Source of the DNA: an uncultured Chloroflexia bacterium
GTDB lineage: Bacteria; Chloroflexota; Limnocylindria; Limnocylindrales; CSP1-4
Assembly (NCBI GenBank): GCA_963712745.1
Contig: CAVQJC010000011.1
Span: forward strand, 192,001 to 256,000
Direction of reading: 5' to 3'
DNA: 64,000 nt
In this document: positions 1 to 16,177 of the stretch, piece after piece
Position numbering within the stretch: the first letter of the stretch is position 1
Layout: each line of letters starts with the position of its first letter
Translations under genes and position numbers: made by a program
Notes under the pieces: model-generated
Told to the model about the DNA's origin: nothing
The model's input: only the letters and a program-made list of their open reading frames with translations
Database searches by the model: none

Positions 1-518
1 GCGACATCGTCTACAGTGAGAACGAGTGGTTCTCCCAGTTCGCACAGGACCGCACGCTGGGCATCCCGCACACGCTCTGGATCCTGGCTTTCGTGGCCGT
101 CATCGCACACCTGCTTCTCTCTCACACCGTGCTCGGTCGATGGGTCTATCCGACCGGCGGCAACTATGCGGCGGCACGAGCATCGGGTGTCCCGGTCCGT
201 CGAGTGATGGTCTCGGTATTCGTCATCTGCGCTACGTTCTCCGCCATCGGCGGCATCCTGCTTGCCTCCATCAACGAGAGCGCACGCTCCAACGCCGGTT
301 TCGGCCAGGAGTTCAACGCCATCTCCGCGGTGGCCATCGGTGGCAACAGCATCTTCGGTGGCGCCGGGACCGTGCCGCGCACGATCATCGGCGTGCTCAT
401 CGTGGGCGTGCTCAACAACCTCATGATCCTGGTCGGCATCCCGGCCGAATCGCAGAACGTCGTCAAGGGCGCCCTCATCGTGGGCGCGGTGCTGCTTGAC
501 CTGAGGTTGCGACGATGA
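1..518 (+). CDS. Monosaccharide ABC transporter permease (RbsC-like), 5'-truncated by window edge
   Basis: Frame open from nt 3; hydrophobic; GRWVYPTGGNYAAARASG and ISAVAIGGNSIFGG motifs of the BPD_transp_2 family. Confidence 0.9.
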   Translation, partial: DIVYSENEWFSQFAQDRTLGIPHTLWILAFVAVIAHLLLSHTVLGRWVYPTGGNYAAARASGVPVRRVMVSVFVICATFSAIGGILLASINESARSNAGFGQEFNAISAVAIGGNSIFGGAGTVPRTIIGVLIVGVLNNLMILVGIPAESQNVVKGALIVGAVLLDLRLRR

Positions 519-1534
519 CCTCCATCAGCCCGCGGACGCTGCGTTTCATCGCCGAGAACCGCATCTACCTCTTCTTCGCGGTCGCCTTCGTGTTGGCCCT
601 CGTCTTCATCCCTGACATCCGCAGTGTGCCCGCGCTGAGGAACGTGCTCGCGCGTGCCTCCATCGAGGGCATCATGGCCGTGGGCGTGACCATCGTCATC
701 CTTTCTGGCCAGCTGGATCTCTCGCTGGGCTCGGTCCTGGCGCTCAGTGGTGTCGTGGCTCTCGGCTTGCAGGGAGACATCGGCCCGGTGCCGGCAGCCT
801 TCGTGGGCATCCTGGCCGGCGGACTCGTAGGGGTCATGAACGGTGTGTTCGTGGTCAGGTTCGGCATCAACTCGTTCATCGTCACGCTGGCGGCCATGAT
901 CGGTGTCCGAGGCATGGCCATGACGCTCTCCAACGCCGCCCCTATCCGCGGTGCCGATTCGTCCTTCGGCCCCAGCGTGGACCGGGCCATCTTCGGGCCG
1001 CTCTGGGAGGGGCTGGGGACCTTCCTCACGCCGCGCATCCTCATCTTCCTGGCGCTGCTCCTTGTCGCGCACCTGTTCCTTCTGTGGGTGCGCCAGGGCC
1101 GCAACATCTACGCCGTCGGCGGGAACCCCGAGGCAGCACGCCTGTCCGGCATCCCGACCTCGACCTACGTCTTCGGCGCCTTCGTCTTCAGTGGCCTGTG
1201 CGGTGGTCTTGCCGGGACCGTGCTCGGCCTCAGCCTGAACACCGGGTCACCGGTGGTGGGTGCTGACAGCATCCTGCGCGTCATCGCTGCCGTGGTCATC
1301 GGCGGCACCGCGCTGACGGGCGGCTCGGGGTCGATGCTCAAGACGCTCATGGGCGTGTTGCTCCTGGCACTGGTCAACACGGCCATGAACCAGGCTCGCG
1401 TAGAGGTATACGTCCAGGGCATCGTCCTCGGCATCATCCTCATCCTCGTAGTACTCATCGACGCTCTCTACAGCGCGTGGCGCACGCGCCTGGTCATCGC
1501 CGGTCAACTCGGATCGACGCGAGCTGCCGACTAG
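515..1534 (+). CDS. Monosaccharide ABC transporter permease (RbsC-like)
   Basis: GQLDLSLGS, GRNIYAVGGNPEAARLSG and IAAVVIGGTALTGG motifs; ATGA overlap with upstream permease. Confidence 0.92.
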   Translation: MTSISPRTLRFIAENRIYLFFAVAFVLALVFIPDIRSVPALRNVLARASIEGIMAVGVTIVILSGQLDLSLGSVLALSGVVALGLQGDIGPVPAAFVGILAGGLVGVMNGVFVVRFGINSFIVTLAAMIGVRGMAMTLSNAAPIRGADSSFGPSVDRAIFGPLWEGLGTFLTPRILIFLALLLVAHLFLLWVRQGRNIYAVGGNPEAARLSGIPTSTYVFGAFVFSGLCGGLAGTVLGLSLNTGSPVVGADSILRVIAAVVIGGTALTGGSGSMLKTLMGVLLLALVNTAMNQARVEVYVQGIVLGIILILVVLIDALYSAWRTRLVIAGQLGSTRAAD

Positions 1535-1658
1535 CGGCGAAATCCGGTCGCAGATAGGAGGAGGACACCGCGAGAACACCAGCCTCGACCCGTGATGAGG
1601 AGGAGTCACGGGCCATGGACTTCCACCGAGTCCCACTGAGAAGGAGTAACCGATCGAC

Positions 1659-2624
1659 ATGAAGAGCACTCTGAAACTCATCGGCGTCGTGGCGACGCTC
1701 GCAATCGCAGCCACAACGCTGGCTGTCCCCGTGGCGGCGCAGGACGAGGAGATGGGCAAGACAGCCTGTCTGCTCGCGCCCGCTTCGACCACCCCATATT
1801 CGGCCCGCATCAACGCGAAGATCGAGGAAGCCGGTGCCGAGCAGGGCATCGCCTTCACGGTCCTTTCCGCGGAGCAGGATCCGGCGGTCCAGGTCGACCA
1901 GATGCGTGACTGCATCGCCCAGGGCGTGGATGGCATGATCCTCATCTCGTCTGACCTCGAGGCCATCTGTCCGGTCCTCCAGGAAGCCAATGACGCTGGT
2001 ATCCCGGTCCTGACCTCCAACGCCGGTGTGAGCTGCACCGACCTGGTGGAAGGCTTCACCGGGCCCAACTACACCCTCCAGGCCAACATCATGGGTGAGT
2101 ACACCTGCAGCGACCTGCTACCCGACGGCGGCAACGTGGCCATCGTCTCCGGCGCTCTCGGCTACTCGGCCACGGTCGAGCGGACCGACGGCTTCGTCGA
2201 CAAGATCGCCGAACTCTGCCCTGACAGTGTCACCATCATCGATACCCAGCCGACCGACTGGTCTCGCCAGAGCGCGCTCCAGATCGCGCGTGACTACGTG
2301 ACCAAGTACGGCGCCGACGGCATCGACATGATCTACGCCCAGGACGACACCCTGGCCGCCGGCGTGGCCGAGGGCCTCGAGCAGTCCGGCGTGGCCCCCG
2401 GCGACATCAAGCTCGTCGGCATCGGCGGCAACGTCGATGGCTTCGACCTGATGACCAACGGCTGGATGCAGGCCACCATCTACCAGTCCCCCTTCTTCGA
2501 TGGCCAGCTGGCCGTCGACACGCTCACCCGTATCTTCGCGGGCGAGGACGTCGAGGACTTCATCCCCATCGACTCTCCCGTCATCACCCCGGACAACATG
2601 TCCGAGTACGAGCCGGCCTACTAG
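1659..2624 (+). CDS. Sugar ABC transporter substrate-binding protein (RbsB-like)
   Basis: Signal peptide (AVPVAA-QD); Peripla_BP_4-type motifs ERTDGF, IYAQDD, ATIYQSP; AAGGAG RBS. Confidence 0.9.
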   Translation: MKSTLKLIGVVATLAIAATTLAVPVAAQDEEMGKTACLLAPASTTPYSARINAKIEEAGAEQGIAFTVLSAEQDPAVQVDQMRDCIAQGVDGMILISSDLEAICPVLQEANDAGIPVLTSNAGVSCTDLVEGFTGPNYTLQANIMGEYTCSDLLPDGGNVAIVSGALGYSATVERTDGFVDKIAELCPDSVTIIDTQPTDWSRQSALQIARDYVTKYGADGIDMIYAQDDTLAAGVAEGLEQSGVAPGDIKLVGIGGNVDGFDLMTNGWMQATIYQSPFFDGQLAVDTLTRIFAGEDVEDFIPIDSPVITPDNMSEYEPAY

Positions 2625-2690
2625 GCGGGCCAACGCCGGGACGGGCACTGCCATCGGCAACGGCCTGTCCCCGGTCGTGACCAACACCCC

Positions 2691-2731
2691 GAGGGCGAGT
2701 CGGCCCCCATCCTCCACGCCGACTCGCCCTC
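2691..2731 (+). terminator. GC-rich stem-loop 3' of the binding-protein gene (mRNA stabiliser or attenuator)
   Basis: Perfect 14-bp inverted repeat GAGGGCGAGTCGGC / GCCGACTCGCCCTC with 13-nt loop; no U tract. Confidence 0.55.
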
Positions 2732-2767
2732 CACCGTCTCCACTCCAGCGCCAGGAGGTAACGATCC

Positions 2768-3547
2768 ATGGAACAGCGCCTGGCCATCATCACCGGCTCC
2801 TCCAAGGGCATCGGCGAGGCCTGTGCCCGGCGGTTCCTGGCCGAGGGCGTCACCGTCGTCGGCATCTCGACCTCACCACCTGATGAGCCACTCGCCTCAC
2901 ACACAGGCTTTCACGCCATCGTGGGAGACGTCGCCGATGCGGCCGTCTGGGAGCAGGTCACCACGACCTACCGGGCGCTTGGCATCCTGCCGACCACGCT
3001 CGTACTCAATGCCGCGCGACCCCTGGTCGGCACCGTCATCTCACTCGAGATCGACCAATGGCGGTCCCTTTTCGAGGGCAATTTCTTCGGCGCAGTGCTC
3101 GGGGCCAAGTCGTGCCTGCCTGACATGATCGCTGGCGGAGGCGGCTCGGTCGTCGTCGTTTCGTCGGTCGACGGCTGGCTGGCGGAGCAGGGTCTGATCG
3201 CCTACGCCTGCACCAAGGCGACCCTCATCGCCTTCGCGCGCAACCTGGCTGTTGACCATGCGCGAGACAGGATCCGGGCGAACGTGGTGGCGCCCGGCAC
3301 GACCGACACCCCAGCCTTCCGGCGTGCCATGGGGACGGCCGATGACCCTGACGCCTGGATCGAAGAACGAGCCCAGCGCAACCCGCTCGGTCGCATCCTC
3401 TCCGCCGATGAGATCGCCAGCACCGCGTGGTTCCTCGCCAGCGAGGAATCCTCGGGCATCACAGGGGCCGTCGTGACGGTCGATGCGGGACTCTCGACGT
3501 CGTTCGACTTCAGACGGCCAGAGAGCCACGGATACCGCGAGTCATGA
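2768..3547 (+). CDS. Short-chain dehydrogenase/reductase (SDR)
   Basis: TGSSKGIG Rossmann motif, catalytic YACTK, IRANVVAPG; AGGAGG RBS. Confidence 0.93.
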   Translation: MEQRLAIITGSSKGIGEACARRFLAEGVTVVGISTSPPDEPLASHTGFHAIVGDVADAAVWEQVTTTYRALGILPTTLVLNAARPLVGTVISLEIDQWRSLFEGNFFGAVLGAKSCLPDMIAGGGGSVVVVSSVDGWLAEQGLIAYACTKATLIAFARNLAVDHARDRIRANVVAPGTTDTPAFRRAMGTADDPDAWIEERAQRNPLGRILSADEIASTAWFLASEESSGITGAVVTVDAGLSTSFDFRRPESHGYRES

Positions 3548-3597
3548 CCACCCCCATGACCTCGCCGTGATGGCATCGATCGGGCGCTGACGGGCAG

Positions 3598-4846
3598 GTG
3601 ACCATGGGATCGACCGACCTACGAGCCGCCTTTGACGGGCTCCTCGCCGACCCGGCCTACTTCCAGGATCCATATCCTGCGCTCTCGACCATCCGTGAGG
3701 CGTCGCCCCTCTACTGGAGTGACGAGTGGGGCGTCTGGATCGTCACCCGCCACGAGGACGTGGTCGCCATCCTCAAGGATCCTCAGCGCTACTCCAACGC
3801 CGGGCAATTCAGCGCCTATCTCGATCAGCTGCCCGCTGAGGCAGCGCCGTACGTCGAGCCCCTACGCCGTCACTATGCCTCGGGCATGCTGCAGTCCGAT
3901 CCGCCGGCCCACTCGCGCCTGCGACCGCTGATCAACAAGGCTTTCACGCCGCGAGTGGTCGAGGGTTCGCGCGCTCGAAATCGAGTCAATCGTCGAGGGG
4001 CTCATCGCGGAGTTTCGGGACCGCGGCAGCGCCGACCTGCAGCGTGAGTTCGCCTACCCGCTGCCGGCCATCGTCATCGCCGAGCTGATGGGCGTTCCAG
4101 TGGGAGACCGCGACCTGCTCATCGACCTCTCCGACGGCGTCGTCGGCATCCAGCGCTCCGGCAGGGCCGCAGTGGACGGCCACCTCGTCCGGTCCGCCGA
4201 ATCGATGGTGGCCATGGAGGACTATTTCCGCGACCTCTGCCGTGAACGCAAGGCGCACCCGGGCGACGATCTCATCACCGCCCTCGTCGAGGCTGAGGAG
4301 GCCGGTGATCGGCTGGATGAGGCCGAGCTCATCTCGATGTGCACGACCCTCATGATCGCCGGGCACGAGACCACGCGGAACCTCATCGCCAACGGCATGC
4401 TCACGCTTCTGCGCCACCCGGACGACCTGCGACGCTTGCAGGAGCGCGACGAGGCACTGCTCACGTCAGCCATCGAGGAGATGCTGCGCTACGAGAGCCC
4501 GATCCAGCGGGGCTGGCGGCGCATCGCCGAGGACATTGAGCTTCATGGGCAGCGCCTCCACGAAGGCCAGCTGCTGTATCTCATGCTCGGCGCGGCCAAC
4601 CGCGACCCGCGCCTCTTCGACGAGCCGGAGGACTTCCTGATGGATCGCAAGCCCAACCGCCATGTGGCCTTCGGGATGGGCGTCCACTTCTGCGTGGGGG
4701 CCCCGCTGTCCCGGCTGGAGGCCAAGATCGCCTTCCTGGCCCTGCTCGGGTTGCCGGACCTTCAGCTCACGGTCGATGACGTGGAGTGGACCGCCAGCAT
4801 CACCCATCGGGGCCTTGAGTCACTGCCGGTGGCCTTCGATGTCTGA
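3598..4846 (+). CDS. Cytochrome P450, split by one +1 frameshift near 3978
   Basis: DPPAHSRLR, I-helix AGHETT, ExxR (EEMLR), heme motif FGMGVHFCVG; removing one A in CGAAATC joins ORFs 3598-4047 and 4088-4846. Confidence 0.92.
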
Positions 4847-5633
4847 TCCCATCCGCTGCTCGCTCAACGTCACGTTCCACTTCTTCGGGCGGCCGCTCAC
4901 TGACGCCCTCGATGGCGCGGTCAAGGCCGGCTTCACGACGATCGAGCTGCTCGATCCCTACAGCGTCGAGCTCGACGATCTCGAGCGAGCCCTGGATCGT
5001 CGCGGGCTCAAGGTCGACCTGTTGAACCTTCCCATGGGCGATTTCGCGGCCGGAGACCGCGGCTTTGCGGGCGACCCGCGAAGGCGCGCCGAGTTCCGGG
5101 ACGGTGTCGAGGCTGCCTTGCAAATCACAGGCCGGCTCGGCGCCACCAAGGTCAACGCGCTCGCCGGCAATCGCGTCGACGGTGTGAGCGAGTCCGACCA
5201 GTACGACTGCCTCGTCGAGCAGCTGGGCTTCGCCGCGGATCGCCTGGCTCAGGAGGGCGTGCGCCTGACGACGGAGATGCTGAACCCGATCGAGACCCCC
5301 GGATTCCTGCTCTCCTCGCTCTCGCGAGCGCAGTCGATCCTGGACCAGCTCGGCGGCAGGGTGGCGTTTCAGCTTGACGTCTACCACCTGCAGCGGACGC
5401 ACGGCGAGCTTATCCGCACCATCGAGGAGACGGCAGATCTCACCGGCCACTACCAGATCGCGGACGCCCCCGGCCGCAACGAGCCGGGCACCGGCGAGAT
5501 CAACTTCGTCAACGTCCTCGCCGCCATCGCTGCGACCGGATACGAGGGGCTGGTGGGATGCGAGTACAAGCCCAGCGCACCGGATATCGATGCATTCCTC
5601 TGGATGCATGACCTGGGTGTCGAGAAGGCGTAG
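4839..5633 (+). CDS. Hydroxypyruvate isomerase / OtnI family TIM-barrel isomerase
   Basis: NLPMGDFAAGDRG, DVYHLQ, QIADAPGRNEPGTGEIN, GCEYKP; start overlaps the P450 stop. Confidence 0.88.
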   Translation: MSDPIRCSLNVTFHFFGRPLTDALDGAVKAGFTTIELLDPYSVELDDLERALDRRGLKVDLLNLPMGDFAAGDRGFAGDPRRRAEFRDGVEAALQITGRLGATKVNALAGNRVDGVSESDQYDCLVEQLGFAADRLAQEGVRLTTEMLNPIETPGFLLSSLSRAQSILDQLGGRVAFQLDVYHLQRTHGELIRTIEETADLTGHYQIADAPGRNEPGTGEINFVNVLAAIAATGYEGLVGCEYKPSAPDIDAFLWMHDLGVEKA

Positions 5634-5743
5634 AGGATGACCAGGTGACGAGCCATCGACGAGCCGACCCGGCGGCTGGAGCGCCGCGTGATACCGATGG
5701 AGCGGCAGCCCCCGCCGCGCGCCCCACCGCTATGCTTGCGAGC

Positions 5744-6841: not shown

Positions 6842-6895
6842 GGCCCGACAAGCAGAACGACACAGGTCGACCTCGCCGCTTCCCCTATACTCCGA

Positions 6896-6909
6896 GTGTG
6901 TATACACGC
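6896..6909. promoter_or_regulatory. Candidate operator just downstream of a TATACT -10 element
   Basis: Palindrome GTGTATACAC (6898-6907); related motifs at 9245-9257 and 12876-12889. Confidence 0.5.
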
Positions 6910-6933
6910 ATACCGGCTGCCTCGTCGGGCGAC

Positions 6934-8088
6934 ATGACCTCGCGCGAGCGCGTCCTCGCCGCGCTTGACCACCGCGAGCCCGACCGAGTGCCCTACGACT
7001 TCGGCGGCACCTTCGTCACCAGCAGCCACCACATCGCCTACCGCCGGCTCCGCGAGTACCTGGGCATCACACCCGAGGTCAACGTCGCGGACATCCGCCT
7101 GGGGCTCGCCTGGATCGATCGCGACGTCCAGGATCTGCTCGGTGCTGACGTGGGCATCGTGGCCACGGGTCCTCCCGACCCGGCCAGCTGGCAGCTCGAG
7201 GTCCGGGATGCAGGGGAGTATCGCGAACTCACCGACGAGTACGGCATGGGCTGGCGCCAGCCCAAGGACGGCGGCCTCTACTTCGACCTCTTCCACAGTC
7301 CGCTGGCCGACGTGGAGACGCCGGCCGAGGTCGCGGCCTATCCCTGGCCCGACCCCACCGACCCCGCCCGGTTCCGCGAGATCCGGGCCGACTGCGAGCG
7401 AGTCGTCTTCGAGGAGGGGCGAGCCTCAGCCTGCAAGGGCATCATCCCCGGGACGCTGGAGGTCTCGCTGTGGATGCGAGGGTTCGAGCGGTTCTTCATG
7501 GATCTCGTCCAGGACCAGGCCTTGGCCGGGGCCATCCTGGACAAGGCGCTGGAGATCAAGCTGCGCTTCTGGGAGACGGTCTTCGGGCACATCGGGGACA
7601 TCCTCGACGTCATCTACGATGCCGATGACTATGGCAGCCAGATGGCCCCGCTCATCGCACCGGACCTGTGGCGCAAGATGATCAAGCCGCGTATCTCGGA
7701 GCTCTACGCCTTCGTGCATGCCAACAGCGGGGCCAAGGTCTTCCTGCACTCGGACGGCGCCATCAAGCCGCTCATCCCCGATCTCATCGAGGCCGGCGTG
7801 GACGGACTCAACCCCGTGCAGTTCACCGCCGAAGGCATGGAGTTGCCGGAGCTCAAGCGTGAGTTCGGGCGCGAGATCGCGTTCTGGGGCGGCGGCGTGG
7901 ATACCCAGAAGGTGCTGCCGCGCGGGACGCCGGCAGAGGTGCGGGAACAGGTGCTCCGGAACGTGGAGATGCTGATGCCGGGCGGTGGCTACATCTTTGC
8001 CACGGTCCACAACATCCAGGCGGACGTCCCGCCGGAGAACATCGTGGCCATGGTGGAAGCACTCCGGGAGGCCGGCGTCTACCGTTAG
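6934..8088 (+). CDS. Uroporphyrinogen-decarboxylase (URO-D)/MtaA-like family protein, function unknown
   Basis: MTSRERVLAALDHREPDRVP N-terminus, DDYGSQ, FLHSDG, FWGGGVDTQ, HNIQADVPPENI. Confidence 0.88.
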   Translation: MTSRERVLAALDHREPDRVPYDFGGTFVTSSHHIAYRRLREYLGITPEVNVADIRLGLAWIDRDVQDLLGADVGIVATGPPDPASWQLEVRDAGEYRELTDEYGMGWRQPKDGGLYFDLFHSPLADVETPAEVAAYPWPDPTDPARFREIRADCERVVFEEGRASACKGIIPGTLEVSLWMRGFERFFMDLVQDQALAGAILDKALEIKLRFWETVFGHIGDILDVIYDADDYGSQMAPLIAPDLWRKMIKPRISELYAFVHANSGAKVFLHSDGAIKPLIPDLIEAGVDGLNPVQFTAEGMELPELKREFGREIAFWGGGVDTQKVLPRGTPAEVREQVLRNVEMLMPGGGYIFATVHNIQADVPPENIVAMVEALREAGVYR

Positions 8089-8137
8089 CTCAGGGGTGCG
8101 CCGCCCCGCCCTCAGGCGCCGCCCCGCCATCGCCGAC

Positions 8138-9181
8138 TCAGGCGCCGTCCGCCACCTCTTCGTCGATGGCTTCACGAACCGCTGTCCAGCCCGCGATGAA
8201 GGCATCTCGGAAGTGCTGTACCGGTCCGAACTCCTCGAACTCCGCAGCGCTCAGCGCCTCGATGTCCATAGCCCGCCGGAAGTCCTCGAACGTGTCGAGC
8301 AGCTGCTCCTCGACGTCCGTCGGCGCGGGATCACCCACGGTCTCGCGTCGCTCCGGATCGGCCTCGAGGACCTCGACATAGGTCGACCAGTTGATGGTCG
8401 CGGCATGCGGCCCACCTACCAGTCCGGTGAGGTCGGCCGTGGTCCTGGCTCCGCCGTACAGGAGCTGAACCGGGTAGCCGCGTTCGTCGACCAGCCGCTT
8501 CGCGGCTCGGGCCCAGGCCACGCCCGCCCACATCACGGCCTCTGGCGCGATGGTCGTTCCGTCGCGTGCGGCGACCTTCTTGAGGTGGTCACCGAAGATG
8601 CCCGTGATGGGAGCCATGATGAAGACCGGGCTGTTGCCGCTCTCAGCCGAAGCCTGCCGGTAGCGCTCGCAGGTCTCGGCGACCTGGGCCAGGCTGAAGA
8701 CCTCCGTCATCAGCACGGGCTGATCCTCCCGGACCAGGACATCGAGCGCCGCCAGGCCGGGGAGGGTAGCCGGGATCTTGGGGATGCAGTTCTCTGCCAG
8801 GGAGCGGGCCTCGCGGGCAGAGTCCAGGATCGGCTCGACCGCGGTGTCCAGTTCGGGCGCTCCCTGCATAGAGACCCAGCCTTCCCGGCCACCACTGCGC
8901 TCGTGGATGGCGGAGAAATGGGGCAGGATGCGTGCGACCAGGCGCTGCTGGACGAGCGCTACGCCCTCGTCTCCGCGGGCGCCCGCGGCGGCCACCTCGA
9001 CGATGTCTGGTCGGATCTCAGCGGGGGCTCGGCCGAGCAGGTTGCCGCCGTAGGCGGGGTTGGTGGTGCAGGCGACCGCGCCTTGCGCCAGGGATAGCTC
9101 GATCTCCGAGGCGGTGGGATTGTTGATCCAGACACGGCTCGGCGTCTGGTGGCGTAGCCATTCGAAATAGGTCTCGCTCAT
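8138..9181 (-). CDS. Transaldolase/FSA-family protein (atypical active site)
   Basis: WINNP, CTTNP, Schiff-base Lys in IPKIPAT, TEVFS; AGGAG RBS before ATG 9181. Confidence 0.85.
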   Translation of the reverse strand: MSETYFEWLRHQTPSRVWINNPTASEIELSLAQGAVACTTNPAYGGNLLGRAPAEIRPDIVEVAAAGARGDEGVALVQQRLVARILPHFSAIHERSGGREGWVSMQGAPELDTAVEPILDSAREARSLAENCIPKIPATLPGLAALDVLVREDQPVLMTEVFSLAQVAETCERYRQASAESGNSPVFIMAPITGIFGDHLKKVAARDGTTIAPEAVMWAGVAWARAAKRLVDERGYPVQLLYGGARTTADLTGLVGGPHAATINWSTYVEVLEADPERRETVGDPAPTDVEEQLLDTFEDFRRAMDIEALSAAEFEEFGPVQHFRDAFIAGWTAVREAIDEEVADGA

Positions 9182-9320
9182 GCGGCTCCTGACGGGCTTC
9201 CCGTTGGCTGTGCGTTGATTCCCGCAAGTGGACCCTGATATGCTTGCATGCACACGTCCTGCAGGCAAGCCTGAACTGCCGAGACCGCGCATCAGCGCCT
9301 GGACATGAGGGAGCGATGGA

Positions 9321-10070
9321 ATGACGACTCCGACACGATCCACAACTCCGGCGGGCGCCGCTGCTGCATCGGGCAAGGCGCTGGCGCGTTCCGCGGCGCT
9401 CGATGCGCTCATGGCCGCGCCGCCCCCCGTCGTGCAGGTGTCGATCGACGTACCCACCGTCGACCAGGCCATCGAGATCGGCCACATGGCCAAGCGCGCT
9501 GGGGTCGACCTGCTCGAGTTCGGGACACCGCTGGTGCTATACCAGGGGCTGTCGGTGATGGACCCGTTCAAGGCGGCCTTCCCCGATGACCCGGTCCTGG
9601 CCGATGTCAAGATCGTCGACGGCGCCAAGAAGTACGTCGTCTCGGCCGCCAAGATGGGAGCTGACTTCGTGACTATCTGCGGGGTGGCTCACGACGCCAG
9701 CATCCGACAGGCGCTGGAAGGCCAGGCGGAGACCGGCATCACGGTCGTGGTCGACCTGTACGCTGCGCCTGATCCGGTGGCACGGGCCCGCGAGGTCGTG
9801 GACATGGGCGCTCAGGTCGTGCTCGTCCACTACGGGGGCGATGCGCGCCTGGACGACCCTGAGGCAGACGACACGATCGACATGCTCACGCGTACCAAGG
9901 CCGCGGTCGACGTTCCGGTGGGCGTCGTGACCTTCGATCCGGCCGGCGGCGAGGCGGCCGTGGCGGCAGGCGCCGACATCGTGCTCATCGGCCACCCCTA
10001 CCTGCTGGGCCCCGAGGCAGAACCGATGCTGACCGAGTACGTCCAGAGGGTGAAGGCCGTCCGGGCCTAG
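9321..10070 (+). CDS. 3-hexulose-6-phosphate synthase-like (OMPDC/HUMPS family)
   Basis: VQVSID, LEFGTPL, LADVKIVDG, HPS-type VVVDL and HYGGD. Confidence 0.8.
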   Translation: MTTPTRSTTPAGAAAASGKALARSAALDALMAAPPPVVQVSIDVPTVDQAIEIGHMAKRAGVDLLEFGTPLVLYQGLSVMDPFKAAFPDDPVLADVKIVDGAKKYVVSAAKMGADFVTICGVAHDASIRQALEGQAETGITVVVDLYAAPDPVARAREVVDMGAQVVLVHYGGDARLDDPEADDTIDMLTRTKAAVDVPVGVVTFDPAGGEAAVAAGADIVLIGHPYLLGPEAEPMLTEYVQRVKAVRA

Positions 10071-10117
10071 GGGCGCGTCGTACCGCCGCCGCGGCCCGCC
10101 ACGGAAGGACTGGTGAC

Positions 10118-11137
10118 ATGAGAGCGATGCTGCTCAGCGCCCCGCTGACGCTGGAGATCGTCGATCAACCCGATCCCATCATCGAGCGCGAAGACGATGT
10201 GCTGGTGCGCGTCAGAGCGGCCAGCGTCTGTGGGTCGGACACGCACGGCTACGATGGCAAGAATGGCCGCCGAGTGGCTCCGCTCGTCATGGGACATGAG
10301 GCCTGTGGCGAGGTGGTGGCCGTGGGCGCGGGGGTCAGGGCCGTCTCGCCCAGAGACCGCGTGTTCGCCATGCCCATGGAGTGGTGCGCCGACTGTGACG
10401 AGTGCCGGCGCGGCGCGTTCGACCTGTGCCCCGAGCGCAAGGTCTACGGAGGCGACCTTCCCGGCGCCTTCGCAGAGCTCTTCCGTATCCGCGAGCGCAC
10501 GGCCGTCCCCATCCCGGACGAGGTCAGCTACCAGCAGGCCGCTCTCATCGAACCCCTGGCCGTCGTGGTCAAGGGCCTTTCGCGTGCGAAGGTCGATGCC
10601 GGCGACAGTGTCGCGGTCGTCGGCGGCGGGCCGATCGGCCTCATCGCCACGGCAGTCCTGGCGCTGCACCGGCCCCGCCGACTCATCGTCCTGGAGCCGC
10701 TTGAGAAGCGGCGCCAGATCGCGCGAGAGATGGGCGCGACACTGGTGCTCGACCCGACCGCGGTCGATGCCGCCGAGCAGGTCGCAGCGGCGACCGACGG
10801 CCGCGGGGTGGATCTGACGGTGGAGGCGGTGGGCACCACGGCCTCGGTCGCAAGCGCGGTGAATGCCACGGCCGGCGGCGGCCAGATCGTATGGCTCGGC
10901 AACGTCGGCCGGGTCGTGGAGATCGACGAGTTCAAGGTCGTCTGGAACAACCTGACCATCCACGCCAGCGTCGGCGTCACGCGGGCAGCAGTCGAGCGCG
11001 CTATCGAACTCATCGCCGAAGGCTCGGTGCCGGTGACCAACATCCTGACGCTGGACGTCCCGCTCGAGGACGCGGTCGAGGCGTTCCACCGCACCGCGCG
11101 TGACGCCGACATCGTGAAGACGATCATCCGGCCCTGA
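10118..11137 (+). CDS. Zn-dependent alcohol/polyol dehydrogenase (MDR)
   Basis: CGSD, GHE, structural Zn CxxCxxC...C, GGGPIG. Confidence 0.93.
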   Translation: MRAMLLSAPLTLEIVDQPDPIIEREDDVLVRVRAASVCGSDTHGYDGKNGRRVAPLVMGHEACGEVVAVGAGVRAVSPRDRVFAMPMEWCADCDECRRGAFDLCPERKVYGGDLPGAFAELFRIRERTAVPIPDEVSYQQAALIEPLAVVVKGLSRAKVDAGDSVAVVGGGPIGLIATAVLALHRPRRLIVLEPLEKRRQIAREMGATLVLDPTAVDAAEQVAAATDGRGVDLTVEAVGTTASVASAVNATAGGGQIVWLGNVGRVVEIDEFKVVWNNLTIHASVGVTRAAVERAIELIAEGSVPVTNILTLDVPLEDAVEAFHRTARDADIVKTIIRP

Positions 11138-11173
11138 CGGCTCCGGGCTGTTCCGATCCGACCGCGCTGTCGG

Positions 11174-11830
11174 TCAGTCGGCCTCGGCCAGCAGCGCCTG
11201 CATCGAGGTGGCCATGGCAGCGAGCATGAGCCAGCACGAGGTGGCGCCGGCGTCGAGCACGCCTCGGGAGCGTTCACCCAGCCGGCTCGCCCGACCGACC
11301 CTGGCGACCATGTCGCGAGTCGAGTCCTTGCCCTGCTCGGCGGCCTCGGTGAGCGCGTCGAGCGCGTCGGTGAACGCTTGGCCGGCATCGACCGCGGCAT
11401 GGAACGCCGCGGTCGCGGGCACGAGCGTGTCGAGCAGCGTCTTGTCACCGACGTTGGCCTCACCGATGTCCTCGACGGACTCGCGCCCCGCGTCGAGCAT
11501 GGAGCCGAAGGTCTGGGCATCGATGGCCTCGATGCCGGCACAGGCCTCACCCATCTCGCTGAAGAAGCCGCCGTAGAGCGGGCCCATGGCGCCACCGATG
11601 CGGGTCATCAGGGTCTCGCCGATGAGCGCCAGGCCGGCCGAGAGGTCGATGTCGCCAGTCAGCTCGTCGCGGACGATGAGGAAGCCCTTGCGCATGTTGA
11701 CGCCGTGGTCGCCATCGCCGATGGCTCCGTCGATCTCACTCAGGAGCTGGCCATGCTCGTCGATGGTCTCGATGAGCGCGTCGACGACGACCCGGCCCTG
11801 GGCGGCGGGGAACGAGGACGCCGCGCTCAT
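11174..11830 (-). CDS. dhaL: Dihydroxyacetone kinase-family L subunit
   Basis: DGAIGDGDHGVNM, GGAMGPLYG, GDKTLLD, GRASRLGERSRGVLDAGA. Confidence 0.92.
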   Translation of the reverse strand: MSAASSFPAAQGRVVVDALIETIDEHGQLLSEIDGAIGDGDHGVNMRKGFLIVRDELTGDIDLSAGLALIGETLMTRIGGAMGPLYGGFFSEMGEACAGIEAIDAQTFGSMLDAGRESVEDIGEANVGDKTLLDTLVPATAAFHAAVDAGQAFTDALDALTEAAEQGKDSTRDMVARVGRASRLGERSRGVLDAGATSCWLMLAAMATSMQALLAEAD

Positions 11831-12831
11831 GACGGCAGCTGGCGCAGGCCCACGCTGTCGGCCTCGAGGTCGAGACAGCTCTTGAGCTCATCGTCGAGCC
11901 GCATCAGCGTCACCGTCGCGCCCATCATCTCCAGGGACGTGAAGTAGTTGCCGACGTAGGGTCGGTGGATGGACAGGCCGGCCTCCTCGGCGAGGCGTGC
12001 GACGTGGTCGTAGAGGATGTACAGCTCCATCACCGGCGTGGCCCCGAGGCCGGAGATGAGGATGGCCACCTCGTCACCGCGTTCGAAGGGCAGGTCGGGC
12101 AGGATGACGTCCAGCATCTGGGCCGCGATGTCCCGCGCCGGCTTCAAGGTCTCGACCGAGACGCCCGGTTCACCGTGGTGGCCGATGCCGACCTCCATCA
12201 TCCCGGGCTCGATGCTGAAGTTCGGCTTGCCCAGGGCGGGGATGGTGCAGGGCGTCAGGCCGACACCGATGCTGCGGGTGTTGTCGATGGCCTTCTGGGC
12301 CGCTGCGATGACCTCGTCGAGCGAGCCTCCGAGGGCGGCCTTGGCACCGCCGACCTTCCACATCAGCACCTCACCCGCGACCCCCCGGCGCTTCTCGCGC
12401 TCTTCGGGGGGTGCCGAGGGCACATCATCGTCGGCCACGACGGTCTCGACGCGGATGCCCTCCTTCTCCGCCTTGCGCCGGGCGAGCTTGACGTTCATGT
12501 TGTCGCCCGCGTAGTTGCCGTACAGGCAGGCCACGCCGACGCCGGCGTCGGCGGCCCGGAACGCGTCCAGGAACGCCGAAGCGGACGGTGAGCTGAAGAT
12601 CTCGCCCACGGCCACGGCATCGACCATGTTGCGCCCGAGGTAGCCGATGAAGGCCGGCTTGTGCCCGGACCCACCGCCGGTGACGATGCCGACCTTGCCC
12701 TCCACCGGCGCGCCCGCGTAGCGCAGGACACGTGGGTCATCGGTCGCGGCCACGAGGTCGGGATGCGCGCGCAGGAAGCCGCGCAGCATGTCCTCCACGA
12801 CCAGTGTCGGATCATCGATGATGCGCTGCAT
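11827..12831 (-). CDS. dhaK: Dihydroxyacetone kinase-family K subunit
   Basis: GGGSGHKP, NYAGD, RRGVAG, GIGHHGEPG, TSLEM. Confidence 0.92.
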   Translation of the reverse strand: MQRIIDDPTLVVEDMLRGFLRAHPDLVAATDDPRVLRYAGAPVEGKVGIVTGGGSGHKPAFIGYLGRNMVDAVAVGEIFSSPSASAFLDAFRAADAGVGVACLYGNYAGDNMNVKLARRKAEKEGIRVETVVADDDVPSAPPEEREKRRGVAGEVLMWKVGGAKAALGGSLDEVIAAAQKAIDNTRSIGVGLTPCTIPALGKPNFSIEPGMMEVGIGHHGEPGVSVETLKPARDIAAQMLDVILPDLPFERGDEVAILISGLGATPVMELYILYDHVARLAEEAGLSIHRPYVGNYFTSLEMMGATVTLMRLDDELKSCLDLEADSVGLRQLPS

Positions 12832-12937
12832 CGGGTACCTCCTCGACTCTCTAGCTGAGCCCTGCCGGTTTGCAGGTATGCATACACGCCTGCCCGCAGC
12901 CTAGCGCGGGGTGGGTGCGCAGGCAAGCCGCCTGCCG

Positions 12938-13806
12938 TCAGAGGCGGAAGTAGCGTTCCGCATTGGCGCTGAACATGGCCACCTGTTCGTCATCGGAGAA
13001 GTCGCTGATCAGCGCGGCCCAGGTGTCGACCACATCGGGGTAGGAGGCGAACAGGCGCCCGAAAGGCCAATTCGAGGCGAAGATCGTGCGCTCGGGGCCA
13101 AAGGCTTCGATGCAGGTCATGGCCCACGGCCGGATCGAGTCGATGGTCCATCGGGGATCGCAGATGTCGAGCCCGGACACCTTGACGATGACGTTGGGTG
13201 CCACCGCCAGGTTGAGCAACTCTCGCCGCCACAGCTCGAAGTAGGCCTCATCGCGCCCCCGGGGGAAGCCGGCGTGGTCCAGGCACACCGTCATGTTCGG
13301 GTGCTTGCCGGCCAGCGCCTTGACGTCCGCGTACGTCTCCGGCTTCGCATGCACACAGCTGATGAGGCCATGCTTGTCGAGGTAGGAGAAGCCGCGTTGC
13401 CAATCGGGGTCACGCAGGTAGTCGTCATCTCGATACTCGCGGACACCACGCACGTTGGCGAACTGCAGGTGTCGCTCGATCACCGACTCGGCGTCGGGCT
13501 CGGCCAGATGCACCTCGGCCACGATGCCGTGTGGGTGGCCGAGCCGGTCGGAGAAGGCCTGGATCCAGCGCGTCTCCTCGACTGGATCGGGGATCCTCCT
13601 GCACACTGGACGTGGATCGACTTGACGACGTTGCTGAAGCGCGTCTCCGCGAGCCAGTCGTCGGCCCAATAGCGGAGGGCCTTGATGGCGCGGATGTCCT
13701 CGATGATCTCGTGCTGAGCGCCCGGCTTCAGCAGGTCATAGCGGAGCTTCGGGTTCTCGAGGTCATAGAAGTGGACATGCGTATCGATGAAGGGCAGGTC
13801 TGCCAC
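12938..13806 (-). CDS. Amidohydrolase_2 family protein (sugar-lactonase-like), one frameshift near 13590
   Basis: IDTHVH, LDHAG, VKVSGL, FGPERTIFASNWP, NAERYFRL; ORFs 13480-13806 and 12938-13669 join by an indel. Confidence 0.85.
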
Positions 13807-14854: not shown

Positions 14855-14879
14855 GCGGCAGCCCCTCCATGTAGTCGCC

Positions 14880-14895
14880 GTTGGAACGTTCCAAC
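14880..14895. promoter_or_regulatory. LacI-type operator in the divergent iol promoter region
   Basis: Perfect 16-bp palindrome GTTGGAACGTTCCAAC with central CG, next to TATACT. Confidence 0.75.
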
Positions 14896-16173: not shown

Positions 16174-16177
16174 GCCT

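What the first reader, a model, noticed from the sequence alone, without database searches (positions are those of the whole stretch)
1..13806. Candidate undescribed catabolic pathway for an O-methylated sugar or cyclitol: P450 plus HPS-like enzyme inside a sugar ABC island
Seen: a P450 sits between an SDR and a Hyi-family isomerase, downstream of a ribose-type ABC importer. Nearby are a URO-D-like protein, an HPS-like enzyme, Zn-ADH, DhaKL, an atypical transaldolase and a lactonase-like enzyme, with a GntR-LacI regulator in the middle. Established: CYP236A P450s demethylate 6-O-methyl-galactose in marine Bacteroidetes and release formaldehyde, and HPS fixes formaldehyde onto ribulose-5-phosphate. 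Inference: this island imports and oxidatively demethylates a methyl-sugar or methyl-inositol (pinitol/ononitol type, given the adjacent iol genes) and recaptures the C1 unit. I do not recognise this gene combination. No ferredoxin, reductase or hxlB/PHI is visible in the window.
Basis: partly seen in the sequence, partly recalled or inferred. Interest (0 to 1): 0.78.

Follow-up and report, generated by a model that had tools for sequence, protein, structure and literature searches.

The report
Methyl-sugar demethylation and C1-capture island
A rare, conserved gene island in a freshwater/sediment Chloroflexota genome appears to import a methylated sugar, strip its methyl group with two different demethylase types, and feed both the sugar and the one-carbon unit into central metabolism, a route that has not been described.

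Summary
Two of them, the P450 and the lactonase-like amidohydrolase, are split by single-base frameshifts. At least two further genes in the window are split too, so the assembly looks indel-prone.

The combination is a real module. A Limnocylindrales contig (L005) carries ten of the enzymes in a different order, plus RpiB and a corrinoid protein, and its P450 is fused to a Rieske domain. Three metagenome contigs and one same-genus genome are syntenic.

The main new result concerns the URO-D-like protein. It belongs to a methyltransferase-like family whose best structural match is MtaA. In 23 of 160 loci a family member lies within 5 kb of a corrinoid protein, mostly in sugar-transport contexts. 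P450 and URO-D-like genes are adjacent in at least two URO-D clades.

In G442 the HPS-like/Zn-ADH pair sits inside a corrinoid-methyltransferase and folate-C1 cluster with no P450.

Verdict: methyl removal plus C1 handling is supported. A CYP236A-like P450, a canonical HPS/PHI route and a methyl-inositol substrate are not. The substrate is unknown.

The parts
1..1534 (+). Two CUT2-type ABC permeases. The ATPase lies just upstream of the window at G000:C11:189919-191529.
   Evidence: Pfam BPD_transp_2, E 2e-26 and 2e-39. ABC_tran ATPase at L004:17919-19529.
1659..2624 (+). Periplasmic sugar-binding protein, ribose-binding-protein-like
   Evidence: Peripla_BP_4, 170 bits. RbsB model 105 bits against a cut-off of 337. 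Best PDB hits are ribose-binding proteins 2ioy, 7e7m and 1urp. 79% identical in L125.
2768..3547 (+). SDR oxidoreductase, resembling aldose or glucose 1-dehydrogenases
   Evidence: adh_short_C2, 153 bits. No NCBIfam cut-off reached. 61% identical in L005, 76% in L125.
3598..4846 (+). Class I cytochrome P450, read in two frames (3598-4047 and 4088-4846). One extra base near 3977-3981.
   Evidence: Pfam p450 on the C-terminal part. Frames shown. Alignment to intact L125/L126. Heme-thiolate FGxGxHxCxG and I-helix AGHETT present. 77% identical to L125, 48-49% to the upstream paralogue.
4839..5633 (+). Hyi/OtnI-family TIM-barrel isomerase (2-oxo to 3-oxo type)
   Evidence: AP_endonuc_2. Hydroxypyruvate isomerase model 258 bits against 353; 2-oxo-tetronate isomerase model 213 against 325. 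PDB 3ngf and 1k77 (YgbM). The start overlaps the P450 stop.
5645..6841 (+). Regulator with a GntR-type HTH and a LacI-type sugar-sensor domain
   Evidence: Pfam GntR plus Peripla_BP_3/1. 87-92% identical in L125, L126 and L137.
6898..8088 (+). URO-D-like protein of the MtaA/MtvB methyltransferase kind. The likely start is 6934.
   Evidence: Pfam URO-D, 79.6 bits, profile positions 99-345 only. MtaA/CmuA model 49.6 bits against 235. AF2 model pLDDT 93. Best fold match 4ay7 (MtaA), E 7e-15. Family members lie near corrinoid proteins in 23 of 160 loci.
8138..9181 (-). Atypical TAL/FSA-superfamily protein
   Evidence: Pfam TAL_FSA, 56.8 bits. TAL equivalog models 43 and 31 bits against cut-offs of 367 and 234. 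55% identical in L005, 73% in L126. A canonical TAL lies elsewhere in the genome at C4.
9321..10070 (+). HPS-like OMPdecase-family enzyme of a rare subfamily. It is always followed by the Zn-ADH.
   Evidence: HxlA model 117 bits against 200. PDB HPS 9lj9 E 6e-28, against KGPDC at about 1e-9. Only 91 proteins at E<=1e-10 in the 5.8-billion-protein set. It is the only OMPdecase-family match in the genome.
10118..11137 (+). Zn-dependent alcohol/polyol dehydrogenase
   Evidence: ADH_N plus ADH_zinc_N. IolM model 237 bits against 450; Tdh 186 against 380. Adjacent to HPS-like in the window, L005, G695 and G442.
11174..12831 (-). DhaL (11174-11830) and DhaK (11827-12831), a two-subunit dihydroxyacetone/ketose kinase
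   Evidence: Dak2 and Dak1. DhaL model 172 bits against 138, so met; DhaK model 338 against 406. DhaK is 77% identical in L005 and 90% in G695.
12938..13806 (-). Amidohydro_2 lactonase-like enzyme, read in two frames. One base is missing near 13594.
   Evidence: Amidohydro_2, 117 bits. L-fucono-1,5-lactonase model 87 bits against 400. Frames. Extra base in X3 and X20 contigs. Intact 289-aa orthologue at L005:9880-10749.

Best explanation
The island is a catabolic module for a methyl-etherified carbohydrate whose identity is unknown.

Proposed steps (all inferred):
1. A ribose-type ABC system imports the compound.
2. The methyl group is removed by one or both of two conserved neighbours. One is an O2-dependent class I P450, which would give formaldehyde. 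The other is a URO-D-like, MtaA/MtvB-type methyltransferase that would pass the methyl group to a corrinoid protein.
3. The one-carbon unit and the sugar skeleton are then processed by the remaining enzymes: the HPS-like enzyme coupled to a Zn-ADH, a Hyi/OtnI-type 2-oxo/3-oxo isomerase, an SDR with a lactonase, an atypical TAL/FSA-type enzyme, the DhaKL ketose kinase, and RpiB where it is present. The products would be pentose-phosphate and triose-phosphate intermediates.

Shown here: gene content, conservation of the module, the recurrent P450/URO-D-like pairing, the link between the URO-D-like family and corrinoid proteins, and the C1 context of the HPS-like/Zn-ADH pair.

Inferred only: the substrate class, the direction of each step, and which enzyme does which reaction.
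For: (1) The module is conserved.
- L005 holds Hyi, P450, URO-D, TAL, DhaK, DhaL, Zn-ADH, HPS-like, Amidohydro_2 and SDR at 42-77% identity, in two tightly packed convergent operons.
- L125, L126 and L137 are syntenic at 68-92% identity, and their P450 is intact.
- G695, of the same genus, is syntenic from TAL to Amidohydro_2.

(2) The P450/URO-D-like pairing recurs.
- A second pair lies 5-7 kb upstream of the window: the P450s are 48-49% identical and the URO-D-likes 36%.
- 8 of 29 P450 loci from other genomes of the class have a URO-D-like gene directly adjacent.
- On the URO-D tree, P450-adjacent members form two fully supported clades, plus one unplaced row.

(3) The URO-D-like protein looks like a methyltransferase.
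- Its best fold match is MtaA (4ay7, E 7e-15), ahead of true URO-Ds at about 1e-11.
- A corrinoid-protein gene lies within 5 kb of a family member in 23 of 160 loci, and within 300 nt in 14.
- Those loci also hold RACo, Pterin_bind, S-methyl_trans and Met_synt_B12 genes, next to sugar isomerases, FGGY kinases and CUT2 ABC genes.
- L005 has a corrinoid protein at 37-690 (minus strand) beside the module.
- Both module genomes hold RACo (2 each), Pterin_bind (4 each) and many B12-binding proteins (13 and 8 matches).
- MtvB/MtoB-type MT1 O-demethylases belong to the MtaA/CmuA-related group (PMC8630106, passages read).

(4) The HPS-like enzyme has a C1 context.
- Its alignment is closer to solved HPS than to KGPDC, and it keeps the DxKxxD motif.
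- In G442 the run HPS-like, Zn-ADH, corrinoid protein, URO-D-like is flanked on one side by RACo, Pterin_bind, MTHFR, a formate transporter and FTHFS, and on the other by TAL, SDR and transketolase.

(5) There is a precedent. In marine Flavobacteriia, P450 demethylation of 6-O-methyl-galactose goes with a required Zn-ADH and RuMP formaldehyde detoxification (PMC10033563 and PMC9400963, abstracts read; PMC6292453, search listing only).

(6) A redox partner exists. A Rieske [2Fe-2S] domain is fused to the L005 P450. The window's genome has a stand-alone homologue, 41% identical, at C20:591557-591847.
Against: - No biochemical evidence exists, and no substrate is identified.
- The P450 is generic by sequence: its best solved relatives are 4rm4, 5l90 and CYP164A2.
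- HPS-like, TAL-like, Hyi-like, DhaK, the Zn-ADH and the lactonase all score below their NCBIfam equivalog cut-offs.
- No PHI passes its cut-off: the best score is 50 bits against 160 in G000, and there is no match in G401. A standard RuMP route is therefore incomplete.
- The window's island has no corrinoid protein. The nearest B12-binding match on the contig lies about 89 kb beyond the window's end.
- P450-adjacent URO-D-likes carry Asp where B12-adjacent ones mostly carry Cys: 12 of 12 against 15 Cys, 4 Asp and 1 without the motif. They may therefore have changed function.
- SDR, lactonase, Hyi/OtnI-like, DhaKL and RpiB also fit a plain aldonate-to-erythrulose pathway with no methyl chemistry (PMC13753588, passages read).
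- The module is rare. The HPS-like gene was found in 3 of 401 genomes of the class and 12 of 401 of the phylum.
- In this assembly the P450 and the lactonase are frameshifted.
Confidence: 0.45

Rival explanations
1. This is a plain aldonate or tetrose catabolic island with no methyl chemistry. A pentose or branched sugar would be oxidised by the SDR, the lactone opened by Amidohydro_2, and the aldonate oxidised by the Zn-ADH. The Hyi/OtnI-like enzyme would isomerise 2-oxo to 3-oxo, and a decarboxylase (the URO-D-like or the HPS/KGPDC-like protein) would give erythrulose. DhaKL would phosphorylate it, and RpiB and TAL would take it to erythrose-4-phosphate. The P450 would do an accessory hydroxylation.
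For: - The Hyi-like protein's best solved relatives include YgbM/OtnI, and the OtnI model scores 213 bits.
- A D-ribonate route runs through a dehydrogenase, an OtnI-like isomerase, an 'unidentified decarboxylase' and a DhaK-family kinase to D-erythrulose-4-phosphate. LerK, EryH and EryI follow apionate (PMC13753588, passages; PMC10733421, passages).
- RpiB sits inside the L005 operon.
- The binding protein is ribose-binding-protein-like.
- URO-D and OMPdecase are decarboxylase superfamilies.
Against: - It does not explain the conserved, repeated P450/URO-D-like pairing.
- It does not explain the corrinoid protein in L005.
- It does not explain the folate-C1 and corrinoid context of HPS-like/Zn-ADH in G442.
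- The URO-D-like fold is closest to MtaA, not to the decarboxylases.
- The HPS-like alignment favours HPS over KGPDC.
Confidence: 0.2
2. The substrate is an O-methyl-inositol (pinitol or ononitol type). The P450 demethylates it, the adjacent iol genes take the inositol, and a true HPS recaptures the formaldehyde.
For: - IolE-like, GFO/MocA-family and IolC genes, and a split IolB, follow directly at 13964-18043.
- The Zn-ADH's best NCBIfam hit is the inosose dehydrogenase IolM, at 237 bits against a cut-off of 450.
Against: - L005 has the whole module and no iol gene on its 11.6-kb contig.
- The genome has a second iolE/GFO/iolC set on C1 at 70-78% identity, so iol genes are not specific to this island.
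- The binding protein is nearest to ribose-binding proteins.
- DhaKL, TAL, Hyi-like and the lactonase have no role in known inositol routes (recalled, not tested).
- No PHI was found.
Confidence: 0.07
3. There is no single pathway. The region is a mosaic of unrelated sugar-utilisation genes packed into a large carbohydrate super-island, and it is partly decaying in this genome, with P450 and lactonase pseudogenes.
For: - The 40 kb around the island holds two CUT2 ABC systems, several dehydrogenases and iol genes.
- There are two frameshifts in the island.
- Distant relatives of single genes do not share the neighbours: 1 of 80 URO-D loci from genome contigs has the other genes, and none of the 10 stretches fetched around TAL-like matches does.
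Against: - Ten genes stay together in L005 despite rearrangement, with overlapping stop and start codons.
- Orthologues in L125 and L126 are intact.
- The 13594 indel is absent from two near-identical contigs.
- Other unrelated genes in the window are split too, which points to assembly error.
Confidence: 0.1

Closest known systems
CYP236A-type oxidative demethylation of 6-O-methyl-D-galactose in marine Flavobacteriia, with a neighbouring Zn-ADH and RuMP formaldehyde detoxification (PMC6292453 listing; PMC10033563 and PMC9400963 abstracts)
   Same: A P450 inside a sugar-utilisation locus, a conserved Zn-dependent ADH nearby, and an HPS-family enzyme linked to the process.
   Different: - The P450 here is not shown to be CYP236A; its best solved relatives are CYP109/107/164-like.
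- The redox partner is a fused Rieske domain in L005, not a separate ferredoxin plus reductase.
- HPS-like lies inside the operon, is divergent (117 bits against 200) and has no PHI.
- A URO-D-like methyltransferase and, in L005, a corrinoid protein are part of the module.
- The Zn-ADH's best solved relatives (3 at E<=1e-40) do not include FoADH or ZoADH.
Corrinoid-dependent O-demethylases of anaerobes (MtvB/MtvC of Moorella, MtoB/MtoC/MtoA/MtoD of Methermicoccus; PMC8630106 passages)
   Same: An MtaA/URO-D-fold methyltransferase next to a B12-binding corrinoid protein, with a RACo-type activase and a pterin-binding MT2 in the same genomes or loci.
   Different: - The known substrates are methoxylated aromatics. 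Here the loci are sugar-transport and sugar-catabolism loci.
- The island's own copy has Asp at the position that aligns with a Cys of MtaA.
- It is paired with a P450.
- It scores 49.6 bits against 235 on the MtaA/CmuA model.
D-ribonate, D-apionate and tetronate routes to erythrulose phosphate (Rib2D, OrnI/OtnI, DerK/LerK, EryH/EryI; PMC13753588 and PMC10733421 passages)
   Same: A Hyi/OtnI-family isomerase, a DhaK-family kinase, an RpiB-family isomerase (L005), a dehydrogenase and a lactonase.
   Different: Those routes have no P450, URO-D-like, corrinoid or HPS-like component. None of the island proteins reaches the OtnI or Hyi cut-offs.
Rhizopine (3-O-methyl-scyllo-inosamine) catabolism, the moc genes of Sinorhizobium (recalled; no call)
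   Same: A methyl-cyclitol is imported by a ribose-type binding protein and demethylated before iol-type catabolism. MocA-family and IolE-like genes lie next to the island.
   Different: As I recall it, the Moc demethylase is a Rieske-ferredoxin-dependent non-heme oxygenase, not a P450. I made no sequence comparison here.

Membership tests
Cytochrome P450 (PF00067), functional class I enzyme | Heme-thiolate loop FxxGxHxCxG, EXXR motif, and I-helix acid-alcohol pair | tested here: met
   FGMGVHFCVGAPL, EEMLRYESP and IAGHETT are present in the window's C-terminal part. The Cys loop is invariant in 15 of 15 aligned relatives. The ORF is interrupted by a frameshift in this assembly.
CYP236A sugar O-demethylase | Family-level identity to CYP236A, with ferredoxin and ferredoxin reductase genes beside it | tested here: inconclusive
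   No CYP236A sequence was available to compare. None appears among the 60 best of 278 PDB matches for the upstream paralogue. There is no ferredoxin in the window. L005 has a fused Rieske domain.
3-hexulose-6-phosphate synthase HxlA (TIGR03128) | Score over the curated cut-off of 200 bits | tested here: not met
   117.1 bits.
3-hexulose-6-phosphate synthase HxlA (TIGR03128) | Suprafamily metal and catalytic motif (Asp on strand 1, Glu on strand 2, DxKxxD) and residues of HPS type rather than KGPDC type | tested here: met
   The alignments to 9lj9, 3ajx and 1xby show D in VSIDV, E in LEFGT and DVKIVD. They also show VVVDL as in the HPS structures, and no Arg three residues after the conserved His. 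Which positions tell HPS from KGPDC is recalled, not taken from a call.
RuMP pathway (HPS plus PHI) | A 6-phospho-3-hexuloisomerase (TIGR03127) in the genome | tested here: not met
   The best score is 50 bits against a cut-off of 160 in G000 (84.6% complete). There is no match in G401.
MtaA/CmuA-type corrinoid methyltransferase (TIGR01463) | Score over the cut-off of 235.4 bits | tested here: not met
   49.6 bits.
MtaA/CmuA-type corrinoid methyltransferase (TIGR01463) | MtaA-like TIM-barrel fold | tested here: met
   AF2 model with pLDDT 93. The top Foldseek hit is 4ay7 (MtaA), E 7e-15, TM 0.65/0.75, ahead of the UroDs.
MtaA/CmuA-type corrinoid methyltransferase (TIGR01463) | His-x-Cys ... 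Cys zinc site (ligand identity recalled) | tested here: not met
   The aligned positions are His284, Asp286 and His371 in the window protein. Position 286 is Asp in 13 and Cys in 12 of 25 family members.
MtaA/CmuA-type corrinoid methyltransferase (TIGR01463) | A partner corrinoid protein encoded beside it | tested here: inconclusive
   There is none in the window's island. One is present beside the orthologous module in L005 and in 23 of 160 family loci.
Uroporphyrinogen decarboxylase HemE | Full-length match to PF01208, as the housekeeping copy | tested here: not met
   Only profile positions 99-345 match, at 79.6 bits. Two full-length URO-D matches of 220 and 197 bits lie elsewhere, at C6 and C17.
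Transaldolase (TIGR00876 / NF002881) | Score over the cut-offs of 233.75 and 367 bits | tested here: not met
   30.6 and 43.3 bits. The superfamily model PF00923 is met at 56.8 bits against 27.
Dihydroxyacetone kinase DhaK/DhaL | Equivalog cut-offs | tested here: inconclusive
   DhaL scores 172.1 bits against 138.3, so it is met. DhaK scores 338.3 against 406.25, so it is not met. I did not search for DhaM.
2-oxo-tetronate isomerase OtnI / hydroxypyruvate isomerase Hyi | Equivalog cut-offs of 325 and 353.45 bits | tested here: not met
   213.2 and 258.4 bits. Family-level kinship is shown by PDB 1k77 (YgbM) at E 6e-37.

The most novel reading that the evidence does not exclude
The island encodes a dual, oxygen-flexible demethylation system for one methyl sugar.

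- An O2-dependent P450, fed by a Rieske-type ferredoxin, and an O2-independent URO-D-like/corrinoid methyltransferase act on the same imported substrate.
- The released C1 unit enters a RuMP-like route that lacks PHI. A divergent HPS would fix formaldehyde. The coupled Zn-ADH or the Hyi/OtnI-type isomerase would stand in for PHI. An FSA-like atypical TAL together with DhaKL would yield DHAP. RpiB would regenerate the acceptor.
- More widely, the URO-D-like family marks a widespread and undescribed corrinoid-dependent demethylation of methylated sugars. The loci come from genomes labelled Chloroflexota, Planctomycetota, Verrucomicrobiota, Armatimonadota and others.
- A candidate substrate class is methylated pentoses, such as 2-O-methyl-ribose from RNA turnover. 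The hints are the ribose-like binding protein and the placement of sister P450/URO-D pairs beside PnrA/Bmp-type ABC transporters.
Probability: 0.15. Interest if true: 0.85.

Novelty: new variant of a known kind. Interest (0 to 1): 0.72.

Why it matters
Methylated sugars are common in algal, plant, cyanobacterial and microbial polymers, and in RNA (recalled). The only demethylation route for them that I know of or found is the marine CYP236A system.

If this reading holds, it would add three things:
1. A second, unrelated P450-based system, in Chloroflexota from freshwater or sediment.
2. A corrinoid-dependent, oxygen-independent route for methyl-sugar demethylation. This would explain the many 'uroporphyrinogen decarboxylase family' genes found in sugar loci of several phyla.
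3. A PHI-less way of capturing the C1 unit.

It also gives concrete proteins to test, all of moderate size: the binding protein, the P450 (with or without its Rieske domain), the URO-D-like protein with the L005 corrinoid protein, and the HPS-like/Zn-ADH pair.

Tried and rejected
- Anchoring on the atypical TAL across the phylum gave 47 of 401 genomes at E<=1e-20. Apart from the window genome's own C20 paralogue (54%), the only matches above 45% identity were two tandem copies in G245 (49% and 46%). I fetched 10 stretches around matches in G245, G211, G331, G358, G020, G366, G035 and G200. None held the other island genes at useful identity; the G245 stretch had only two URO-D-like genes at 28% identity plus weak permease and binding-protein hits, and another had an IolE-like hit.
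- I first read L005:2-721 (+) as an unknown protein 'X' with no Pfam hit. It was a wrong-strand ORF over a corrinoid-protein gene.
- I noted a Rieske fusion for the G556 P450 from a tblastn stretch. This was wrong: the ORF stops before that stretch. A word-based search with the L005 Rieske tail found only that protein itself. The fusion is therefore a singleton, or two adjacent genes merged by a sequence error.
- The Asp/Cys difference between P450-adjacent and B12-adjacent URO-D-likes rests on only 2 independent contrasts and cannot be tested statistically.
- The Rfam scan of the window, L004, L005, L268, L267 and L125 gave 0 matches, so no cobalamin or other riboswitch was found.
- The ESM Atlas returned only 'uroporphyrinogen decarboxylase family' clusters.
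- Read laying: table 4 lists no indel near the P450 frameshift (~3978), and none of the contig pieces listed in table 8 spans it, so that frameshift is unresolved. The RNA-library contigs (X20) match parts of the binding-protein, TAL, Zn-ADH and Amidohydro_2 genes with 0-1 differences. This is no proof of transcription, and parts without cover say nothing.
- Literature searches for a URO-D/P450/sugar link, corrinoid demethylation of methyl sugars and natural P450-Rieske fusions returned nothing that describes them. These four searches cover only the held open-access library.
- I did not open any supplementary files of the cited papers.

Full report
**Where the window lies.** The window is G000:C11:192001-256000. 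The assembly has 4.22 Mb in 20 contigs, and is 84.6% complete with 5% contamination. Named relatives of its proteins come from Chloroflexota and 'Candidatus Limnocylindrales' MAGs. G+C content is 65-72%.

**Checking the observation.** In order they are:
- two CUT2 permeases;
- a ribose-binding-protein-like binding protein (best solved relatives 2ioy, 7e7m and 1urp);
- an SDR;
- a P450;
- a Hyi/OtnI-like TIM barrel (PDB 3ngf and 1k77);
- a regulator with a GntR HTH and a LacI-type sensor;
- a URO-D-like protein;
- an atypical TAL/FSA protein on the minus strand;
- an HPS-like OMPdecase-family protein;
- a Zn-ADH;
- DhaL and DhaK;
- an Amidohydro_2 lactonase-like protein.

Of these, only DhaL reaches an NCBIfam equivalog cut-off. 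IolC, just outside the finding, also does.

First, the P450 is in two frames. Relative to intact orthologues, the window has one extra base in a CGAAATC run. Second, the Amidohydro_2 gene is in two frames. At 13594, one DNA contig (X3) and one RNA-library contig (X20) of near-identical sequence carry an extra base. iolB and a thiolase further along are also split. I therefore read these as indel errors of the assembly rather than decay. The P450 site itself was not covered by any listed contig, so it stays open.

**Is the combination real?** I anchored on the URO-D-like protein.
- From species-representative genomes, 80 loci were returned (33-57% identity). Only one, L005, a Limnocylindrales MAG contig of 11.6 kb, carries the other genes.
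- L005 carries ten of the enzymes at 42-77% identity, rearranged into two convergent, tightly packed operons.
- On the plus strand of L005: Hyi-like, P450, URO-D-like, TAL-like, RpiB, DhaK, DhaL.
- On the minus strand of L005: SDR, Amidohydro_2 (intact), HPS-like, Zn-ADH.
- From JGI metagenomes, three of 80 loci (L125, L126, L137) are syntenic with the window at 68-92% identity. The P450 is intact in L125 and in L126, where it is cut at the contig's 5' end.
- In the class, the HPS-like gene was found in 3 of 401 genomes, counting the window's own. G695, of the same genus, is syntenic from TAL to Amidohydro_2 at a contig start. G442 holds a variant described below.
- In the phylum sample, the HPS-like gene was found in 12 of 401 genomes, at no more than 41% identity outside the own genome.

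The module is therefore conserved but rare.

**P450 and URO-D-like form a recurrent pair.**
- Five to seven kb upstream of the window lies a second pair on the minus strand, with an intact P450 (L004:13005-14456 and 14347-15579). The P450s are 48-49% identical and the URO-D-likes 36%.
- A class-wide search with the intact L125 P450 found 57 of 301 genomes at E<=1e-40. Of 29 returned loci with 1.5-kb flanks, 8 have a URO-D-like gene directly adjacent. One of the 21 loci without it, L226, is from the unpublished genome G452.
- Among the 160 loci anchored on URO-D-like, only 3 hold any P450 (L005, L125, L126). The pairing is therefore specific to this lineage.
- On a FastTree of 116 URO-D-like proteins, the P450-adjacent ones fall into two fully supported clades. 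One is {window, L126, L005}. The other is the eight from other genera. The upstream copy is unplaced.
- In those eight genomes the pair lies beside an ABC transporter. The binding protein is of the PnrA/Bmp type in all 4 loci where I scanned that ORF (L239, L241, L245, L246). Permease or ATPase genes were seen in L243 and L244. The transporter side of L240 and L242 was not scanned.
- L239 also has a nucleoside hydrolase.
- None of the other island genes is present at those loci.

**What the URO-D-like protein is.**
- Its AF2 model (pLDDT 93) matches the methylcobalamin:CoM methyltransferase MtaA best (4ay7, E 7e-15). True uroporphyrinogen decarboxylases follow at about 1e-11, then MetE.
- I clustered the neighbours in the 160 loci. 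After the ABC ATPase (35 loci) and CUT2 permease (19 loci), a B12-binding corrinoid protein is the most frequent neighbour. LacI regulators, sulfatases, xylose-isomerase-like barrels, binding proteins, GFO oxidoreductases, SDRs, creatininase-like proteins and FGGY kinases follow.
- A tblastn recount gives a corrinoid gene in 23 of 160 loci, always within 5 kb and in 14 cases within 300 nt. Among the 111 loci with at least 1 kb on both sides, 18 have one.
- These loci also hold RACo activase, pterin-binding and homocysteine-type methyltransferases and a MetH activation domain. Fucose and arabinose isomerases, a class II aldolase and a GH38 enzyme lie beside them.
- MT1 O-demethylases of the MtvB/MtoB kind belong to the MtaA/CmuA-related group (PMC8630106, passages).
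- What I first took for an unknown ORF in L005 is, on the other strand, a corrinoid protein (L005:37-690). The orthologous module therefore has one.
- The window's island has none. The genome does have 13 B12-binding matches, 22 URO-D-family matches, 2 RACo and 4 pterin-binding matches, including a full cluster at C11:370-385 kb.
- At the positions that align with MtaA's LHICG and APGCGI, the family has H-S-[D/C]-G and an invariant His. All 12 P450-adjacent members have Asp. Of 20 B12-adjacent members, 15 have Cys, 4 have Asp and 1 lacks the motif.
- That difference rests on only two independent contrasts. The zinc-ligand role of those MtaA residues is recalled, not tested here.

**What the HPS-like protein is.**
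- It is the only OMPdecase-family match in the genome.
- It belongs to a small subfamily: 91 proteins at E<=1e-10 in the 5.8-billion-protein set.
- It aligns better to solved HPS (E 6e-28) than to KGPDC (about 1e-9) and keeps the metal and DxKxxD motif.
- It misses the HxlA cut-off (117 bits against 200).
- Neither module genome has a PHI above its cut-off.
- It is followed by the Zn-ADH in all four instances: the window, L005, G695 and G442.
- In G442 the plus-strand run is HPS-like, Zn-ADH, corrinoid protein, an unknown gene, then URO-D-like. On one side lie RACo, DUF1638, a pterin-binding methyltransferase, MTHFR, a formate/nitrite transporter and formate-THF ligase. On the other side lie TAL, an SDR and a split transketolase.
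- G442 had no P450 match at E<=1e-40.

This places the HPS-like/Zn-ADH pair firmly in a C1 context. It also shows that the pair does not depend on a P450.

**Redox partners.**
- The L005 P450 ORF (541 aa) carries a C-terminal Rieske [2Fe-2S] domain with CxH...CxxH.
- It is a singleton in a word-based search. It could be two adjacent genes merged by a sequence error. Either way, a Rieske ferredoxin sits directly after that P450.
- The window's genome has a 41%-identical stand-alone Rieske protein on C20. It also has a Fer4_15 ferredoxin beside its third P450 on C5.

**How it most likely works (inferred).**
1. A methyl-etherified sugar is imported.
2. The methyl group leaves either as formaldehyde, through the P450, or as methyl-corrinoid, through the URO-D-like protein with a corrinoid protein encoded nearby or elsewhere in the genome.
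3. The C1 unit meets the HPS-like enzyme.
4. The Zn-ADH or the Hyi/OtnI-type 2-oxo/3-oxo isomerase could stand in for the missing PHI.
5. The atypical TAL/FSA and DhaKL could turn a ketose phosphate into triose phosphates.
6. RpiB could regenerate ribulose-5-phosphate.
7. The SDR, the lactonase and perhaps the Hyi-like enzyme handle the sugar skeleton. One possibility is an aldonate-to-erythrulose route like the one described for D-ribonate and apionate (PMC13753588 and PMC10733421, passages).

The marine 6-O-methyl-galactose system is the nearest precedent: a P450, a required Zn-ADH and RuMP detoxification (PMC10033563 and PMC9400963, abstracts).

**What remains against this reading.**
- Every enzyme is a divergent family member below its curated cut-off, and no substrate is known.
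- The P450 is generic by sequence.
- The island in the window lacks a corrinoid protein.
- The Asp-type URO-D-likes may have changed function.
- A plain aldonate/tetrose pathway explains half of the genes.

I put the methyl-sugar demethylation plus C1 reading at about 0.45. The plain aldonate reading is at 0.2, the methyl-inositol version at 0.07 and a mosaic or decaying region at 0.1.

**Novelty.** Four literature searches found no description of a URO-D-like/P450 pairing, of corrinoid-dependent demethylation of methyl sugars, or of a natural P450-Rieske fusion. These searches cover only the held open-access library. Both mechanism types are known, from P450 O-demethylation and corrinoid O-demethylases. 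I therefore file this as a new variant of a known kind, of high interest if confirmed.

Noticed in passing
Outside the window: G000:C11:172001-192000 (L004), mainly L004:6069-15579 on the minus strand: A second, intact URO-D-like/P450 pair heads a minus-strand run. It continues with a 1186-aa FG-GAP/ASPIC/VCPO-domain protein, a class II FBP aldolase, a HAD hydrolase and a molybdopterin oxidoreductase. A second CUT2 ABC system, an aldo-keto reductase and an RpiB (C11:171693-172106) lie further upstream.
   Followed up: partly
L005:1897-3522: A P450 with a C-terminal Rieske [2Fe-2S] domain (541-aa ORF). A word-based search of its tail in 5.8 billion proteins found only itself. It is either a rare natural fusion or two adjacent genes merged by a sequence error.
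   Followed up: partly
L268 (G442:C70:37400-57399): A compact C1 island. It holds a RACo activase, DUF1638, a pterin-binding methyltransferase, MTHFR, a formate/nitrite transporter and formate-THF ligase. Next to them lie HPS-like, Zn-ADH, a corrinoid protein and a URO-D-like gene, then TAL, an SDR and a split transketolase.
   Followed up: partly
L239-L246 (eight genomes of the same family): P450/URO-D-like pairs lie beside PnrA/Bmp-type ABC transporters, and L239 also has a nucleoside hydrolase. This hints at methylated nucleosides or their sugars as substrates. In these P450s the I-helix reads AGHEAS instead of AGHETT.
   Followed up: partly
Whole genome G000, for example C11:370258-384689: The genome has a large repertoire of corrinoid-methyltransferase parts: 22 URO-D-family matches, 13 B12-binding matches, 2 RACo and 4 pterin-binding matches. 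One full cluster lies at C11:370-385 kb.
   Followed up: partly
window 16693-18043 and 23143-24367: iolB and a thiolase are each split into two overlapping frames, as are the P450 and Amidohydro_2 genes. The assembly looks indel-prone.
   Followed up: partly
URO-D-like family, window residues 284-286 and 371: At the positions that align with MtaA's H-x-C and second Cys, the family has H-S-[D/C]-G and an invariant His. All 12 P450-adjacent members have Asp. Of the 20 B12-adjacent members, 15 have Cys.
   Followed up: yes
window 24560-39420: An ordinary glycoside-utilisation region: a MalK-type ATPase, GH1, GH3, a CUT1 ABC system, a LacI regulator, an alpha-L-arabinofuranosidase and an FGGY kinase.
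   Followed up: no
G000:C20:392892-393935: A paralogue of the atypical TAL, 54% identical, sits among SDR-like and Zn-ADH-like genes on another contig.
   Followed up: no
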